Origin: the human T2T-CHM13v2.0 reference genome, Homo sapiens
Strand: one strand, 5' to 3'
NCBI RefSeq assembly: GCF_009914755.1
Contig: NC_060937.1
Length of the DNA: 64,000 nt
Position 1 is the stretch's first letter, and each line of letters begins with the position of its first letter. The notes under the pieces were generated by a model. The model saw only the letters and a list, made by a program, of their open reading frames with translations, searched no databases and was not told where the DNA came from. Shown piece after piece: positions 21,851 through 62,240 of the stretch. The position numbers and the translations under genes are program-made.

Positions 21851-22396
21851 TAATTATATAATGATTCATGAAAAGCATATAATTTATCATATATTGTATT
21901 ACACACCTAGTTCAAATGTAATATAACATATATTGCATATAATGAAAGTTGTATTATATGCTGTATTCTATAGAGCCTATATAACATATATCATAAAAGT
22001 TGTGTTATATGCTATATACTAAATAGCCTACATAATGTGTGAAATATATAATATATTAGAGTATTCACTAGGACTAGATGGTGAGATCTTGACTCACATG
22101 CCAAAGTGTTGGTTCCTCACCCCAAATGTGATGCACAGCCATAGCTGCAATACAGCCCCCTCCTCTGTCATGTTCCTGCATCATGACCTGCTGTAAGCTT
22201 CTGTGGTTGTCATTGTATTGCACCACAATAAGTCAATTGCCTTTTAATTCACTATATTTTCTTTGCTTTATTTTCTTTAAATTTGGCTTATGTATCCCTT
22301 GCCTCGTGAATTCAATTATGATTTCCTTAAGTGCAGGTGCTATCTGTGTTTTGTATATTTCAGAGCACCTAGATACTTTAAAATAGTAGTAATTAT

Positions 22397-23185
22397 ATTT
22401 TTAACTTTTAGTTTCAGGGGTACATGTGCAGGTTTGTTTAATAGAAAAATTACATGTTGTGGGGGATTTGGCGTACATATTATTTCATCACCCAGATAAT
22501 AAGCATAGTATCTAATAGGTTATTTTTCGGTCTTCACCCTCCTCCCACCCTCCGCCCTCAAGTATGCCATGGTGTCTATTGGTCCCTTCTTTGTGTCCAT
22601 GTGTACTCAATGTTCAGCTCCCACTTGTAAATGAGAACATGCAGTGTTCGGTTTTCTGTTACTGCATTAGTATTCTTAGAATAATGTTGTCCAGCTCTAT
22701 CCATGTTGCTGCAAAGAACATAATATCGTTAATTTTTATGGTCACAGAGTATCCCATGGTGTATATGTATGAAATTTTCTTTATCCAGTCTACTATTTAT
22801 GGGCATTTACGTTGATTCCATGTCTTTGCTATTATGAACAGTGTGGTGAAGAACATATGCATGTGCCTTTATGTTATATACTACATTTCTGTGGGTATAT
22901 GCCCAATAAAGGGATTGCTGGGTTGAGTGGTAGTTCTCTTTTAAGTTCTTTGAGAAATCTCCAAACTGCTTTCCACAGTGGCTGAACTAATTTATATTCC
23001 CACCAGCGGTATATAAGCATTCTCTTTAATCTGTAGCTTCACCAGTATCTGTTGTTTTTTTTTTTTTTTTGACTTTTTGATATAGCCATTGTGACCAGTG
23101 TGCATATCTATGATTTTTATTTGCATTTCTATAATGATTAGTGATGTTAAGCATTTTTTAATATGCTTGTTGGCTGCATATATAT
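22397..23185 (-). mobile_element. L1PA15-like 3' end (3' UTR and ORF2 C-terminus)
   Basis: ttttaacttttagtttcaggggtacatgtgcagg...tatttcatcacccagataataagcatagta...ctcaagta...atgagaacatgcagtg. Confidence 0.88.
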
Positions 23186-23506
23186 TGTATTAGCCCATTC
23201 TCACACTGCTACCTAAGACTGGGTAATTTATGAAGAAAAGAGGTTTAATTGACTCACAGTTCTGCAGGCTGTACGGGACGCATGGCTGAGAAGCCTCAGA
23301 AACTTACTATCATGGCGGAAGGAGAAGGGGAAGCAAACATGCCTTACCATGGCCGAGCAGGAAGAAGAGAGAGTGAAAGGGGAAGTGCTGCACACTTTAA
23401 AACAACCAGATCTTGTGAGCACTCGTTCACTATTACAAGAACAGCAAAGGGGAAGTCTTCTCCCATGATTCAATCACCTCCCACCAGGCTCCTCACTTAA
23501 CATGTG
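23186..23506 (-). mobile_element. MSTA LTR inserted in the L1, missing its 5' terminus
   Basis: tgtattagcccattctcacactgct...gcaggctgtac...catgattcaatcacctcccaccagg. The terminal aaaccatatca is absent. Confidence 0.88.
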
Positions 23507-24946
23507 AGTTGGGTTTGGTGCTCACTTGGGTTTGGGGTAGCTGCTCTGCTGCCTTAAGCCGGGGGCTCAGCCTTGTGAAGAGTAGTGGGTGGGGGAAGAA
23601 AGACTATTCTCTGCTCTGCATGGCAGCTGTGGAGTGCTGGAGGTGCCAGCGATGCAACCAAGCCCTTTGTTCTTTCCCCAGCCCGAAGGCAGGAAGGGTA
23701 ATACCACTGCAGCTGCAATGGGAGAGGGCTGTTGGTTGTCTGTGGAATTTCCTCCCCAGAGTAACACGGAGCCACCACCGACTGAAGGGTTCAGTCAGGG
23801 ACAGGATGGTTGGGCTGGGGACCAGGTTGAGAGGCCCTGCCTAGTGAGGAGTAACAGGGGCAGGGACCTATGTGGAAAACACTGTGGCCACTATTGTGTA
23901 AGGCAGCTGCACAGTGCTGGAGGCCTGTGTTAGTCCTTAAGCTCTTCCTCCCTCCTTAGCCTGAGGGCAGCAGAGGCAGGAGCTGCAGAACATAACAATG
24001 GTGGGCCTCCCTGCCGCCTCTGGGAGCTCCATCTCAGGGAAGTGCAGAGCTGCTGCCAGCCCGAGAGCTCGGGTGGGTCTGGGGTGGCTTAGGTCCCTGG
24101 TTGGGAGGCCCTACCCAGTGAGAAGTAGCAGGGGAAAGGACCCATGTGGAAAACAGTCTGGCAGCTTTTGCATAAAACAGCTGTGCTGTGCTGGGGTCTG
24201 AATTAGTCCTTAATCACTTCACTGTCTCCCAAGCCTGAGGGCAGCAGGTGTGGTGGTGGGGGGGTTGTTGGGGGGTGCTGTAGAGCAGCAAAACTGGTGG
24301 GCCCGTGTGCGAGTGCTGGGAGCTCCATCCCAGGGAAGTACAGGGCTGCTACTGGCCCAAGAGCTCAGGCAGGGCTGGGTTGGCCATGCTAGGGTCCCAG
24401 GCCACTTGGCTTTGTCCTGTACTGTGCAGTACAGGCAAGGCCTGCAGTCCATCTGCTCTTCAGCCCCATAGATTCAGCTCCTATTCTGACAGCATGTAAG
24501 GGAGTCTGGCCTCCCCTGTTGCCAGCGCTTCAGTTGCTGGTGCTGGGGTGTCCAGCTGTCCAAGTTCCCTAAGGCTAGGCATGTGCCTGCACAGTGGCTC
24601 TGCCCAGACTCCATGTCACTCTCTGTGTCAGTCTGGAAGCCCTGGTGGGGATGGGAAGGGATGATCACAGGGAATTGCCTGAGCCCAGAGTTGCAAAGGT
24701 CTGTGGCAAAAGTGTGGTCCTCGGGGGCTTTCATTCACTCACCGTTCCACACAGTGGGGAGCCTCCTCTTTAGTCCCAATCCTGTCTGGTCTTGCTCTTC
24801 TTTGTTCTCTGTGGGTCACATTGTTTCCTGGATGCATCCCAAAGTGTCCTCCTGGACCATCCAGGTCAGGAGCTAATGTATACTCACCACTGTTTCTCCT
24901 CCCCATGAGAATGGCAGACATCAACTTCTAGTCAGCCATCATGGCA
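23507..24946 (-). mobile_element. L1PA15/16-type 5' UTR with degenerate ~273-296 bp tandem units
   Basis: GC-rich segment ending cttctagtcagccatcatggc, whose reverse complement matches the L1 5' motif gccaagatggccgactagaag. Repeated blocks tagtccttaa (23931, 24204) and tgggagctccatc (24021, 24317). Confidence 0.75.
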
Positions 24947-24954
24947 CTAGAAAA

Positions 24955-25139
24955 TATTTCCTGGCTTCCAGGGATCCTGCTGCCTTAGTTATGGATGGAT
25001 CTCCCAATACCTTCCAGTCCCAGAATCACAGAGTCTGCAGTAGAGTCACCTAGGGTCTCCAGGAGCAGAGGGCACGGAGAGGTGAAGACAGGATGTGGAG
25101 CTCTGTCTGAAGAAAGAGACAAAGGCCCTGCCAGATCCC
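24955..25139 (-). pseudogene. Retrotransposed exon 1 (5' UTR to start codon) of a ZNF91/ZNF93-clade KRAB zinc-finger gene, fused to the L1 5' end
   Basis: Minus strand reads gggatctggcagggcctttgtctct...agagctcca...gtcttcacctctccgtgccctctgctcctggagaccc...ggtattgggagatcca...actaaggcagcaggatccctggaagccaggaaATA. This is collinear with the recalled clade exon 1 (ggcctttgtctct...ggtattgggagatccacagctaag...ggaagcctagaaATG). Confidence 0.75.
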
Positions 25140-26055
25140 AGTAATTATTTTTTAATGTAATTTTATCATAATACTTTTTCTAATTTGTTCTACTTTATTT
25201 GTATATAAAATGTACTTAAAATGCTATTTTTCATTAATAAAATCATAAAATGTTTTATGTATTACCAAAATTTATATTCCAATTTTTCAAATTGGGAATA
25301 ATGTCCTTGAATTTTTACCATTTAAGTCTAGCAAAGTTTTATATCATTATTGTATGAATATACACTATATAAATAACATAAACATATTATATATAAGTAT
25401 ATTGCATGTATGTACATGTAAATATATCGATCTAGTATATATGTAGATTTATTGAATATGTGCATATGCATTTGTGTATGTGTGTAATGGTTACGGGGAT
25501 TACCAGGTTCAAGATCTATGATATAGTAAATATCAGTATGTAAATTTTTAAGAGTCTTACTATACCCGTTCATAGTATTTACACACATACACATGCACAC
25601 AGCCTGCAAGAAGAGGTGCTAATCATCTTAAAGCATATTGCAGCATTTTTCAAACCAGACTCATACATTATTATCTCCGCTTCCTGATTTAAAGCCTGGC
25701 TTACAATTTTATGTATCACACATCTATTTGGATCATAATATATAGAAGACTGTTTTATGAAATGATGTTTATAAACTCTTTGGGTATGAACTTATAATTA
25801 CGTCCAGATATCAAGTATTTTGACCGAAAATATAACTCCTTTGGTGGAATCTAATCAAATTGGTCCAATTAATGACTCAGTACTTCGTACTTTTTAGATG
25901 TTTAAGTGTTCGTTAGCACAAGTTAAATTTTTAAATATAATTTTTTCACACAGAAGTGTTCCTTTTTAACTAATATTTTGTACTGAGTTTTGGGATATTG
26001 TTAAATGGATTTTGTTAAAATTTCTTTGTCACTGTTTTTCAAAAACAAATGTCTC

Positions 26056-37734: not shown

Positions 37735-38114
37735 TGTATTAGTCCATTCTCATGCTACTAATAAAGACATACCTGGGACTGGGTAATTTATAAAGGAAAG
37801 AGGTTTAATTGACTCATAGTTCAGCATGGCTGGGGAGGCCTCAGGAAACTTACAATCATGGCAGAAGGGGAAGCAAAAACGTCCTTCTTCACATGGTGGC
37901 AGCAAGGAGAATTGCCAAGCAAAGAAGGAAAAGTCCCTTATAAAACCATCAGATCTCGTGAGAACTCACTATCATGAGAAGAACAGCATGGGGGTAATAG
38001 TCCCCATTCCCATGATTCAATTACTTCCCACTGGGGCCCTCCCATTACACCTGGGGATTACAGGAACTACAATTCAAGATGAGATTTGGGTGGGGACACA
38101 GCCAAACCATATCA
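37735..38114 (-). mobile_element. THE1 solo LTR
   Basis: tgtattagtcc...gccaaaccatatca. TSD aaggg/aaggt. Confidence 0.95.
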
Positions 38115-39696: not shown

Positions 39697-40049
39697 TGTA
39701 TTAGTCTGTTTCCATGCTGCTGGTAAAGACATACCTGAGACTGGGATGAAAAAGAGGTTTAATTAGACTTACAGTTCCACATGGTTGGGAGGCCTCAGAG
39801 TCATGGTGGGAGGCAAAAGGCACTTCTTACATGGCAGTGTCAAAAGAAAATGAGGAGGAAGCAAAACCTGGAACCCCTGATAAACCCAGCAGATCTCATG
39901 AGACTTATCCACTATCTCAAGAATAGCATGGAAAAGACCGGCCCCCATGATTTAATTACCTCCCCCTGGGTCCCTCCCATAACACGTGGGAATTCTGGGA
40001 GATACAATTCAAGTTGAGATTTGGGTGGGGACACAGCCAAACCATATTA
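39697..40049 (-). mobile_element. THE1A-like solo LTR
   Basis: tgtattagtctg...aacccctgataaaccc...gccaaaccatatta. Perfect TSD aatat (39692-39696 and 40050-40054). Confidence 0.95.
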
Positions 40050-61955: not shown

Positions 61956-62240
61956 TGTATTAGTCCATTCTCTCGCTGCTAATAAAGACATACCCAAGAC
62001 TGGGTAATTTATAAAGGCAAGAGGCTTAATTGACTCACAGTTCAGCATGGCTGGGGCGGCCTCAGGAAACTTACAATCATGGCCTAAGGGGAAGCAAACA
62101 CTCAAACTCACTATCAAGAGAACAGCATGGGGGAAACAACCCCCATGATTCAATTCTCTCTACCTGGTCCTGCCCTTGACATGTGGGGATTATTACAATT
62201 CGAGGTGATATTTGAGTGGGGACACAGCCAAACCATATCA
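61956..62240 (-). mobile_element. THE1 solo LTR with ~80 bp internal deletion
   Basis: tgtattagtcc...gccaaaccatatca, only 285 bp long. TSD gcaaa/gcaag. Confidence 0.93.

What the first reader, a model, noticed from the sequence alone, without database searches (positions are those of the whole stretch)
24955..25139. KRAB zinc-finger gene exon 1 fused to the 5' end of an old L1: candidate ZNF-promoter-driven L1 retrocopy
Seen: a GC-rich ~185 bp island directly upstream (minus strand) of the L1 5' terminal motif, about 8 nt away. It reads gggatctggcagggcctttgtctct...agagctcca...gtcttcac...cctctgctcct...ggtattgggagatcca...actaag...ggatccctggaagccaggaaATA. Established knowledge (recalled): ZNF91-clade genes such as ZNF93, ZNF85 and ZNF43 share an exon 1 with these blocks, ending in gaaATG just before the splice donor. 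The match here starts near the usual transcript start and stops at that exon boundary, with ATG now ATA and no intron sequence. Inference: a transcript from a KRAB-ZNF promoter was spliced onto a sense full-length L1 in intron 1 and retrotransposed. An L1 would then have borrowed the promoter of a gene family that includes retroelement repressors.
Basis: partly seen in the sequence, partly recalled or inferred. Interest (0 to 1): 0.85.

Follow-up and report, generated by a model that had tools for sequence, protein, structure and literature searches.

The report
KRAB-ZNF first exon fused to L1
A 185-base copy of the first exon of a KRAB zinc-finger gene sits directly in front of an old L1 retrotransposon and was pasted into chromosome 13 together with it, an example of a recently published kind of gene-exon/L1 chimera that turns out to recur for this gene family.

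Summary
Window 25139-24955 (minus strand) is homologous to exon 1 of the clustered KRAB-ZNF genes on chr19 and chr7. It starts where other retrocopies of that exon start. It ends at the ATG that is followed by a GT donor in 15 of 16 cluster loci, and it shares no promoter or intron sequence. Six bases further on, an old L1 begins about 9 nt into its 5' end. A 9-bp target-site duplication (ATAATTACT) flanks leader plus L1, so both arrived in one retrotransposition event. The L1 is not full length today: it has a 1.4-kb 5'UTR, an unrelated repeat, and the last ~0.8 kb.

The kind is already in print (Law & Burns, Cell Genomics 2026). They list 17 first-exon/L1 chimeras, one with ZNF681 exon 1. 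This locus is not in their table.

I found ten further KRAB-ZNF-exon-1/L1 chimeras in the same genome, on three L1 5'UTR types, each with a different junction. In one (chr6:25.07 Mb) the spacer is intron-1 sequence that starts at an AG acceptor. For the chr13 copy, cis versus trans joining stays open. The copy carries exon 1, not the upstream ZNF promoter.

Verdict: new member of a known kind, moderate interest.

The parts
25140..25148 (-). 5' copy of the target-site duplication, ATAATTACT. It may extend into the A-run to TTAAAAA-ATAATTACT, 25156-25140.
   Evidence: exact 9-mer at both ends of the unit. The extended match is 16 of 17 with one indel. 19 of 5000 shuffles reach the score. The 8-mer TAATTACT occurs 5 times in 128 kb of both strands.
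24955..25139 (-). Leader: retro-copied exon 1 of a KRAB-ZNF gene, from the transcript start to the donor position. The ATG is now ATA.
   Evidence: homology and its boundaries. Pfam KRAB lies directly after the homologous exon in processed pseudogenes L015 and L094.
24949..24954 (-). 6-nt spacer TTTTCT of unknown origin, between the exon end and the L1.
   Evidence: it matches neither the exon family nor the start of the L1 family.
23530..24948 (-). L1 5'UTR, starting about 9 nt inside the family's 5' terminus. It contains an internal direct repeat (23822-24088 against 24096-24384, 71%).
   Evidence: 29 other copies, 68-76% identity; 22-29 of 29 loci align along most of 24950-23650, fewer towards 23550, none over the leader; the internal repeat.
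23185..23529 (-). Unrelated dispersed repeat standing where the rest of the 5'UTR, ORF1 and most of ORF2 should be. From memory only, it looks like a MaLR/THE1-type LTR.
   Evidence: L1-family coverage drops to near 0; nine further partial matches in at least six places in the window, 65-80% identity; 73% over 333 nt to L013/L014.
22397..23184 (-). L1 3' part: the C-terminal end of ORF2, the 3'UTR and a short A-rich tail.
   Evidence: 22874-23038 matches LINE-1 ORF2p residues 1140-1182 of 1275 (PDB 8sxt, E 4e-17); 74% over 420 nt to the L1 in L023; homology to L1 stops near 22400.
22388..22396 (-). 3' copy of the target-site duplication, ATAATTACT.

Best explanation
One L1-mediated insertion (target-primed reverse transcription) placed a chimeric RNA at this site. 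The RNA consisted of the complete first exon of a KRAB-ZNF gene (cap site to splice donor), 6 nt of spacer, and an L1 RNA from about its 9th nucleotide to its poly(A) tail.

A sense-oriented L1 sat in an intron of a KRAB-ZNF gene. Transcription started at the ZNF promoter. The exon-1 donor was spliced to a cryptic acceptor just upstream of the L1. The L1 proteins then copied their own chimeric RNA.

Shown: the identity and boundaries of the exon, the L1 5' terminus, the single-event target-site duplication, and the recurrence of the same architecture.

Inferred: splicing in cis, from a sibling locus only, and that the L1 was longer when it inserted.

The inserted copy kept only exon 1 and not the upstream promoter. 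No two chimeras share a junction, so none shows progeny.
For: 1. The exon boundaries are RNA-like.
- The match ends at the ATG that precedes GT in 15 of 16 cluster loci.
- It lacks the conserved upstream block.
- Five retrocopies (window, L013, L077, L082, L021) begin at HMM positions 2-4 of the exon.
- In L015 and L013 the same exon runs straight into a KRAB-A box (Pfam KRAB E 1.6e-21).

2. It was a single event. ATAATTACT flanks leader plus L1, next to a TT/AAAA-like site.

3. The leader is not part of the L1 family. 0 of 29 other 5' ends of this L1 type carry it.

4. The architecture recurs. Ten further loci have a KRAB-ZNF exon 1, a spacer of 0-130 nt, and an L1 that starts within about 17 nt of its 5' terminus. 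They are L003, L021, L023, L077, L082, L085, L086, L087, L091 and L144.
- In L003, exon 1 is followed by the complete KRAB-B exon, 82% and 75% identical to L013 and L015. That is a spliced RNA.

5. There is a cis signature in sibling L144.
- Its 78-nt spacer matches 21 places.
- 14 of them lie 0.86-1.9 kb downstream of, and on the same strand as, an exon-1 hit.
- In 8 of 9 fetched copies the match starts right after ...cctttAG.
- The match ends 14-15 nt after a TTT/AAAAAG site, as a source L1's own target-site duplication would.

6. The published RAP1GDS1/L1PA2 case shows this cis route. Supplementary Table 5 maps 15 nt next to the L1 to the gene, and the main text describes the splicing (passages seen).
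Against: - No source L1 was found. The closest other copy of this L1 type is 72% identical, no outlier among 68-76%.
- The 6-nt spacer cannot be traced.
- Junction searches for four siblings found no genomic locus with the same spacer next to an L1. These were L086, L087, L082 and L003.
- None of the 21 genomic copies of the L144 spacer has an L1 at the break.
- Law & Burns found no intronic L1 in 15 of 17 donor genes and favour joining in trans.
- Two siblings look more like reverse-transcriptase template jumps. L085 has a 52-nt tandem repeat whose border is the exon end. L021 is joined at an AAGA(C/T)GGC microhomology.
- The genome searches score only the best candidates, so absences are weak evidence.
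Confidence: 0.5

Rival explanations
1. Joining in trans. A ZNF RNA ending at the exon-1 donor was joined to the 5' end of an unlinked L1 RNA. The ZNF RNA could be a free 5' exon from splicing or a short transcript. The join could be trans-splicing, RNA ligation, or the L1 reverse transcriptase jumping templates at the L1 cap and adding a few untemplated bases (here TTTTCT). The product then inserted as one unit.
For: - The exon ends exactly at the donor, and the L1 starts within its first ~10 nt with no acceptor. This is the pattern Law & Burns describe and ascribe to trans events.
- Spacers are short in the window (6 nt), L091 (6 nt) and L023 (9 nt).
- L085 has a repeat whose border is the exon end, and L021 has a microhomology junction.
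- No source loci were found.
- All eleven junctions differ.
Against: - The L144 spacer begins at an intron-1 AG acceptor and ends a target-site-duplication length after an endonuclease-like site.
- By eye, the L003 and L077 spacers also end 12-18 nt after T-run/A-run sites. No statistical test was done.
- A cis case is documented in print for RAP1GDS1.
Confidence: 0.33
2. Two separate insertions. A ZNF-derived fragment was already at this site, and an L1 later landed next to it by chance.
For: The age of the two parts cannot be compared here, because no other primate genomes are held.
Against: - The target-site duplication encloses both parts.
- An exon-1-only fragment without a 3' end is not what retro-copying of an mRNA gives.
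- The same exon-end to L1-start arrangement recurs at ten other loci.
Confidence: 0.03
3. DNA-level duplication of a ZNF promoter region, or chance similarity.
For: None beyond the similarity itself.
Against: - Genome-wide E-values go down to 5.7e-20.
- The similarity stops at the transcript start and at the donor, with no promoter or intron sequence.
Confidence: 0.01

Closest known systems
mRNA or lncRNA first-exon/LINE-1 chimeric insertions (5' transductions). Law & Burns, bioRxiv 10.1101/2025.02.02.635956 and Cell Genomics 2026, PMC13174262. I read the outline with abstract, section 24, search passages (including two short ones from sections 32-33) and all of Supplementary Table 5.
   Same: - Sense orientation.
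- The 5' piece starts at a transcript start and ends at a splice donor.
- The L1 begins within its first ~10 bp.
- Short unexplained bases at the junction.
- A target-site duplication around the whole unit.
- Their first table row is a ZNF681 exon-1 chimera (hg38 chr3:94441985-94449213) on the same L1 5'UTR type as nine of my sibling loci.
   Different: - This chr13 locus and my ten sibling loci are not among their 17 rows.
- This one sits on an older L1 type and is internally deleted.
- They do not report that one gene family recurs. 'ZNF' occurs 0 times in the preprint's main text and once in the supplements of the published version.
RAP1GDS1/L1PA2 cis-spliced chimeras (same paper)
   Same: Host exons are spliced to an acceptor a few bases upstream of an intronic sense L1. 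This is the route proposed here and seen in sibling L144.
   Different: In that case the source L1 is still present in the gene, and two progeny share one junction. Here no source and no junction-sharing progeny were found.
SVA_F1 / MAST2 exon-1 subfamily (Damert 2009; Hancks 2009; Bantysh & Buzdin 2009). Recalled, not read here.
   Same: The first exon of a host gene is spliced onto the 5' end of a retrotransposon and carried along.
   Different: The SVA chimera founded a subfamily with one shared junction. The ZNF/L1 chimeras all have different junctions.
U6 snRNA/L1 template-switch chimeras
   Same: Two RNAs are copied into one insertion with one target-site duplication.
   Different: In those, the L1 part is usually 5'-truncated and the partner is a whole small RNA. 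Here the L1 is complete at its 5' end and the partner is an mRNA 5' exon that ends at a donor.

Membership tests
Exon 1 of clustered KRAB-ZNF genes (ZNF91-type) | Sequence homology to exon 1 of the chr19/chr7 cluster genes | tested here: met
   16 cluster loci, 67-78% identity. HMM E 9.7e-40; at least 38 cluster copies of the exon.
Exon 1 of clustered KRAB-ZNF genes (ZNF91-type) | Ends at the ATG that is followed by the GT donor | tested here: met
   the match ends at 24955-24957, and 15 of 16 cluster loci read ATG|gtgag. The window reads ATA.
Exon 1 of clustered KRAB-ZNF genes (ZNF91-type) | The exon is spliced to a KRAB-A box exon in mature mRNA | tested here: met
   Processed pseudogenes L015 and L094 have Pfam KRAB (E 1.6e-21 and 7e-12) right after the exon. 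L013, the window's nearest relative (97/82 support), also reads a KRAB-like frame.
Exon 1 of clustered KRAB-ZNF genes (ZNF91-type) | Named parent gene (ZNF93, ZNF85, ZNF43...) | not testable with these tools
   No human gene annotation is on hand. The only name comes from Law & Burns (ZNF681, for another locus).
First-exon/L1 chimeric insertion (Law & Burns class) | One target-site duplication encloses the non-L1 piece and the L1; endonuclease-like site; A tail | tested here: met
   9-bp exact duplication, up to 16 bp, next to TTAAAAA. The tail is only a short A-run.
First-exon/L1 chimeric insertion (Law & Burns class) | Sense orientation; the L1 starts within the first ~10 bp of its consensus | tested here: met
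   the window starts at AGTGCC..., about 9 nt inside the common start of 29 copies.
First-exon/L1 chimeric insertion (Law & Burns class) | Near full-length L1 | tested here: not met
   only the 5'UTR (1.4 kb) and the last ~0.8 kb remain. Whether the loss came after insertion is unknown.
First-exon/L1 chimeric insertion (Law & Burns class) | Both parts arrive at the same time in species alignments | not testable with these tools
   No other primate genomes are held.
Exon-carrying retrotransposon subfamily (SVA_F1-like) | Several copies share the same exon/element junction (progeny of the chimera) | tested here: not met
   The eleven junctions are all different. The leader is on 2 of 76 sampled 5' ends of the second L1 type and 0 of 29 of the window's type.
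LINE-1 | Family 5'UTR and ORF2 protein homology | tested here: met
   (5'UTR). (ORF2p, E 4e-17). Pfam found nothing in three short ORF2 pieces.

The most novel reading that the evidence does not exclude
KRAB-ZNF genes were repeated launch pads for L1. Sense L1s in their first introns, or their RNAs, were joined to the ZNF first exon again and again over three successive L1 5'UTR types. This left at least 12 fixed chimeras: 11 found here plus the published ZNF681 case. They come from several paralogs, far more than one gene family's share of the 17 chimeras known genome-wide. Such elements would be driven by the promoters of the gene family that represses L1, independent of the L1's own 5'UTR promoter that KZFPs target.
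Probability: 0.4. Interest if true: 0.7.

Novelty: new member of a known kind. Interest (0 to 1): 0.45.

Why it matters
On its own, the locus is one more fossil of a mechanism that is now in print.

What may matter is the recurrence. One gene family's first exon heads at least 12 independent L1 insertions. They involve several paralogs and three generations of L1 5'UTR.

If that enrichment holds up against a genome-wide control, it says something about where active L1 source elements sat. It would also show how L1 could be transcribed from a host promoter and so sidestep repression aimed at its own 5'UTR.

The L144 case also gives a concrete, testable cis route: exon-1 donor, then a conserved intron-1 acceptor, then the L1. 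For part of the published class, trans-splicing was proposed instead.

Tried and rejected
- **Leader as part of the L1 family's own 5' end.** Rejected. 0 of 29 copies of the window's L1 type carry it.
- **Leader as a common 5' extension of the second L1 type.** Rejected. It is on 2 of 29, then 0 of 47 further 5' flanks. One more flank, L143, had none.
- **Profile search of the genome with an exon-1 model.** DNA queries were used instead.
- **Source-locus hunts with spacer-plus-L1 junctions.** All failed.
  - L086: only itself.
  - L087: the spacer is a dispersed repeat.
  - L082 and L003: all other hits begin at or near the L1 start.
- **L003 spacer as the start of the zinc-finger exon.** Not significant. 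487 and 610 of 2000 shuffles reach the score.
- **Pfam on the L003 KRAB-B piece and on three window ORF2 pieces.** Nothing found. DNA comparison and the PDB sequence search settled these instead.
- **Literature.** Two full-text searches gave no paper on recurrent KRAB-ZNF-exon/L1 chimeras other than Law & Burns. Subscription journals are not covered.
- **Not attempted.** L1 subfamily names, absolute ages and the orthologous empty site. No repeat library and no other primate genomes are held.

Full report
**1. The observation**

It is a 53% G+C island with one CpG, in flanks of 18-24% G+C.

Searching the window's own genome (T2T-CHM13) with these 185 bases gave 23 matches besides itself. Ten are on chr19 at 20-24 Mb and six on chr7 at 65.5-66.6 Mb, the two KRAB-ZNF clusters. 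Seven rows lie elsewhere. E-values go down to 5.7e-20.

**2. What the 185 bases are**

The boundaries are those of a transcribed exon.
- In pairwise BLAST the matches that reach the 3' end stop at window 24955-24957. None begins above 25141.
- In the multiple alignment, 15 of 16 cluster loci read ...agaaATG followed at once by gtgag.
- All 16 share a conserved block upstream of the match (tccaatcagg...). The window lacks it and has A+T-rich unique DNA there.

The exon belongs to KRAB-ZNF genes.
- Two dispersed copies (L015 chr12, L013 chr18) continue from the ATG straight into a KRAB-A reading frame, so they are processed pseudogenes.
- Pfam finds KRAB in L015 (E 1.6e-21) and in a third processed copy, L094 (E 7e-12).

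The start is a transcript start. Five retrocopies (window, L013, L077, L082, L021) begin at positions 2-4 of an HMM of the exon.

On a maximum-likelihood tree of 36 leader and exon sequences, the window pairs with L013 (97/82). The pair sits beside the chr19/chr7 core clade (99/98). The window keeps a 16-nt block that the core clade lacks. Three genomic exons with promoter and donor still have all or part of it: L007 on chr7, L090 on chr1 and L093 on chr19.

**3. The L1 and the insertion**

Six bases (TTTTCT) after the exon end, the sequence AGTGCCATGATGGCTGACTAG aligns with the 5' start of 29 other genomic L1 copies at 68-76% identity. The window begins about 9 nt inside their common start. 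Upstream of those 29 starts the DNA is unrelated from copy to copy. None carries the leader (best BLAST E 0.004, elsewhere in a locus; best HMM E 0.52).

The structure of the unit is as follows.
- Family homology runs from 24948 to about 23530.
- Then comes a 345-bp dispersed repeat unrelated to L1.
- Then comes the end of ORF2, matching ORF2p residues 1140-1182 (E 4e-17), and the 3'UTR down to 22397.

The 9-mer ATAATTACT stands directly before the leader (25148-25140) and directly after the L1 tail (22396-22388). It extends to 16 of 17 with one indel, and 19 of 5000 shuffles reach that score.

So leader and L1 are one 2.74-kb insertion. Today it lacks ORF1 and most of ORF2.

**4. It is not alone**

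Following up the dispersed matches, and the matches of a second leader type, I found ten more loci with the same plan. Each has a KRAB-ZNF exon 1, a spacer, and an L1 that starts at or near its own 5' terminus.

| Locus | Place | Features |
|---|---|---|
| L003 | chr3:143.352 Mb | exon 1, the complete KRAB-B exon, a 33-34-nt spacer |
| L021 | chr6:41.123 Mb | junction at a microhomology |
| L023 | chr3:7.252 Mb | a 287-bp fragment inside an older L1 |
| L077 | chr1:157.432 Mb | 33-nt spacer |
| L082 | chr18:13.927 Mb | the spacer is a piece of a downstream ZNF exon |
| L085 | chr14:39.718 Mb | see section 6 |
| L086 | chrX:143.300 Mb | 54-nt spacer |
| L087 | chr1:91.182 Mb | about 130-nt spacer |
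| L091 | chrX:149.381 Mb | 6-nt spacer |
| L144 | chr6:25.073 Mb | 78-nt spacer |

- Nine of them sit on a second L1 5'UTR type. That type's copies are 75-80% identical to L003.
- L144 sits on a third type and has a chr19-type exon that is 89% identical to a cluster gene.
- All eleven junctions differ.
- The L1-fused leaders fall into at least four separate groups on the tree.
- Among sampled 5' ends of the second L1 type the leader is rare: 2 of 29 and 0 of 47.

These are therefore repeated one-off events, not a leader-bearing subfamily.

Other dispersed copies of the exon are processed pseudogenes (L013, L015, L094). Others are fused to non-L1 sequence (L002, L088/L089, L092, L095).

**5. 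How the join was made**

The best clue is L144.
- Its 78-nt spacer matches 21 other places at 73-90% identity.
- 14 of these lie 0.86-1.9 kb downstream of an exon-1 hit on the same strand, which is intron 1.
- In 8 of 9 copies I fetched, the match begins right after ...cctttAG, a 3' splice site.
- The chimera leaves the genomic sequence 14-15 nt after a TTT/AAAAAG site. That is the distance and motif expected for the target-site duplication of an L1 that once sat there.

By eye, the spacers of L003 and L077 end in a similar way.

Several points weigh against cis.
- None of the 21 genomic copies has an L1 at the break.
- Four other junction searches found no source.
- The window's L1 has no unusually close relative.
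- L085 and L021 look like template jumps.

For the chr13 copy, with its 6-nt spacer, the data do not decide. My odds are about 0.5 for cis and about 0.33 for a join in trans.

**6. What is known**

Law & Burns describe exactly this class (bioRxiv 2025; Cell Genomics 2026). I read the outline with abstract, section 24, search passages (including two short ones from sections 32-33), and Supplementary Table 5 in full.
- They list 17 insertions in which first exons of mRNAs or lncRNAs, ending at splice donors, precede near full-length L1s. The L1s often start within their first ten bases.
- They propose trans-splicing for most, and cis-splicing for RAP1GDS1/L1PA2.
- Row 1 of the table is a ZNF681 exon-1 chimera at hg38 chr3:94.44 Mb.
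- Neither the chr13 locus nor my ten siblings are in the table. I judged this by chromosome, rough position, strand and the 5' sequence shown.

Two full-text searches found no other paper on the subject.

The SVA_F1/MAST2 subfamily (recalled, not read) is the classic analogue. It differs in having founded a lineage.

**7. Verdict**

The element is a new member of a published kind. It is an inactive fossil, and it carries the ZNF exon but not the ZNF promoter.

The point worth following up is that one gene family supplies at least 12 such chimeras over three L1 generations. No control for other gene families could be run here.

**Limits**
- The genome searches score only the best candidates, 40 per query at most.
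Later loci are therefore short, and the 3' ends and target-site duplications of the siblings were not examined.

Noticed in passing
L003, L021, L023, L077, L082, L085, L086, L087, L091, L144 (T2T chr3:143.352M, chr6:41.123M, chr3:7.252M, chr1:157.432M, chr18:13.927M, chr14:39.718M, chrX:143.300M, chr1:91.182M, chrX:149.381M, chr6:25.073M): Ten further KRAB-ZNF-exon-1/L1 5'-end chimeras. All have different junctions, and they sit on two further L1 5'UTR types. None is in the published table of 17.
   Followed up: partly
L145-L151, L153 and 21 places listed (chr19 21.4-24.3 Mb, chr7 65.6-66.6 Mb): A 78-nt segment about 1-2 kb into intron 1 is conserved among many cluster ZNF genes. It is preceded by ...cctttAG, so it is a ready-made cryptic acceptor or alternative exon. 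The L144 chimera used it.
   Followed up: partly
L085 (chr14:39.718M), oriented positions about 192-295: The last 52 nt of the exon-1 leader are present twice in tandem. The repeat border falls exactly at the exon end (ATG). This looks like a template jump onto an RNA that ends at the donor.
   Followed up: no
window 24947-24954 and L085 after its second ATG: In both chimeras the exon-end ATG/ATA is followed by TTT(T)CTAG, although the leaders belong to different groups. This is unexplained and may be chance.
   Followed up: no
window 24899-25076: The hub's RefSeq table lists a 'silencer' that spans the leader/L1 junction. I could not look at the underlying experiment.
   Followed up: no
window 23822-24088 and 24096-24384: The L1 5'UTR holds a tandem pair of units of about 270 and 290 bp, 71% alike.
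   Followed up: no
window 23185-23529; also 46176-45920, 37735-38049, 61956-62185, 19915-19616, 5785-5607, 21815-21548, 39732-39988: A dispersed repeat (65-80% identity between copies) replaces the middle of the L1. From memory it resembles a MaLR/THE1-type LTR. This was not verified.
   Followed up: partly
L088 and L089 (chr10:81.096M and chr10:80.402M): The same exon-1 leader, fused to non-L1 sequence, occurs twice in opposite orientation about 0.7 Mb apart. The leaders are identical and the flanks, including an upstream Alu-like stretch, are nearly so. This is a segmental duplication of one retrocopy.
   Followed up: no
L002 (chr17:49.818M): The window's best genome match is an exon-1 leader joined to about 620 nt of non-L1 sequence. 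That sequence ends in AATAAA and an A-rich stretch, so it is probably a retrocopy of an alternatively spliced, early-terminated ZNF transcript.
   Followed up: no
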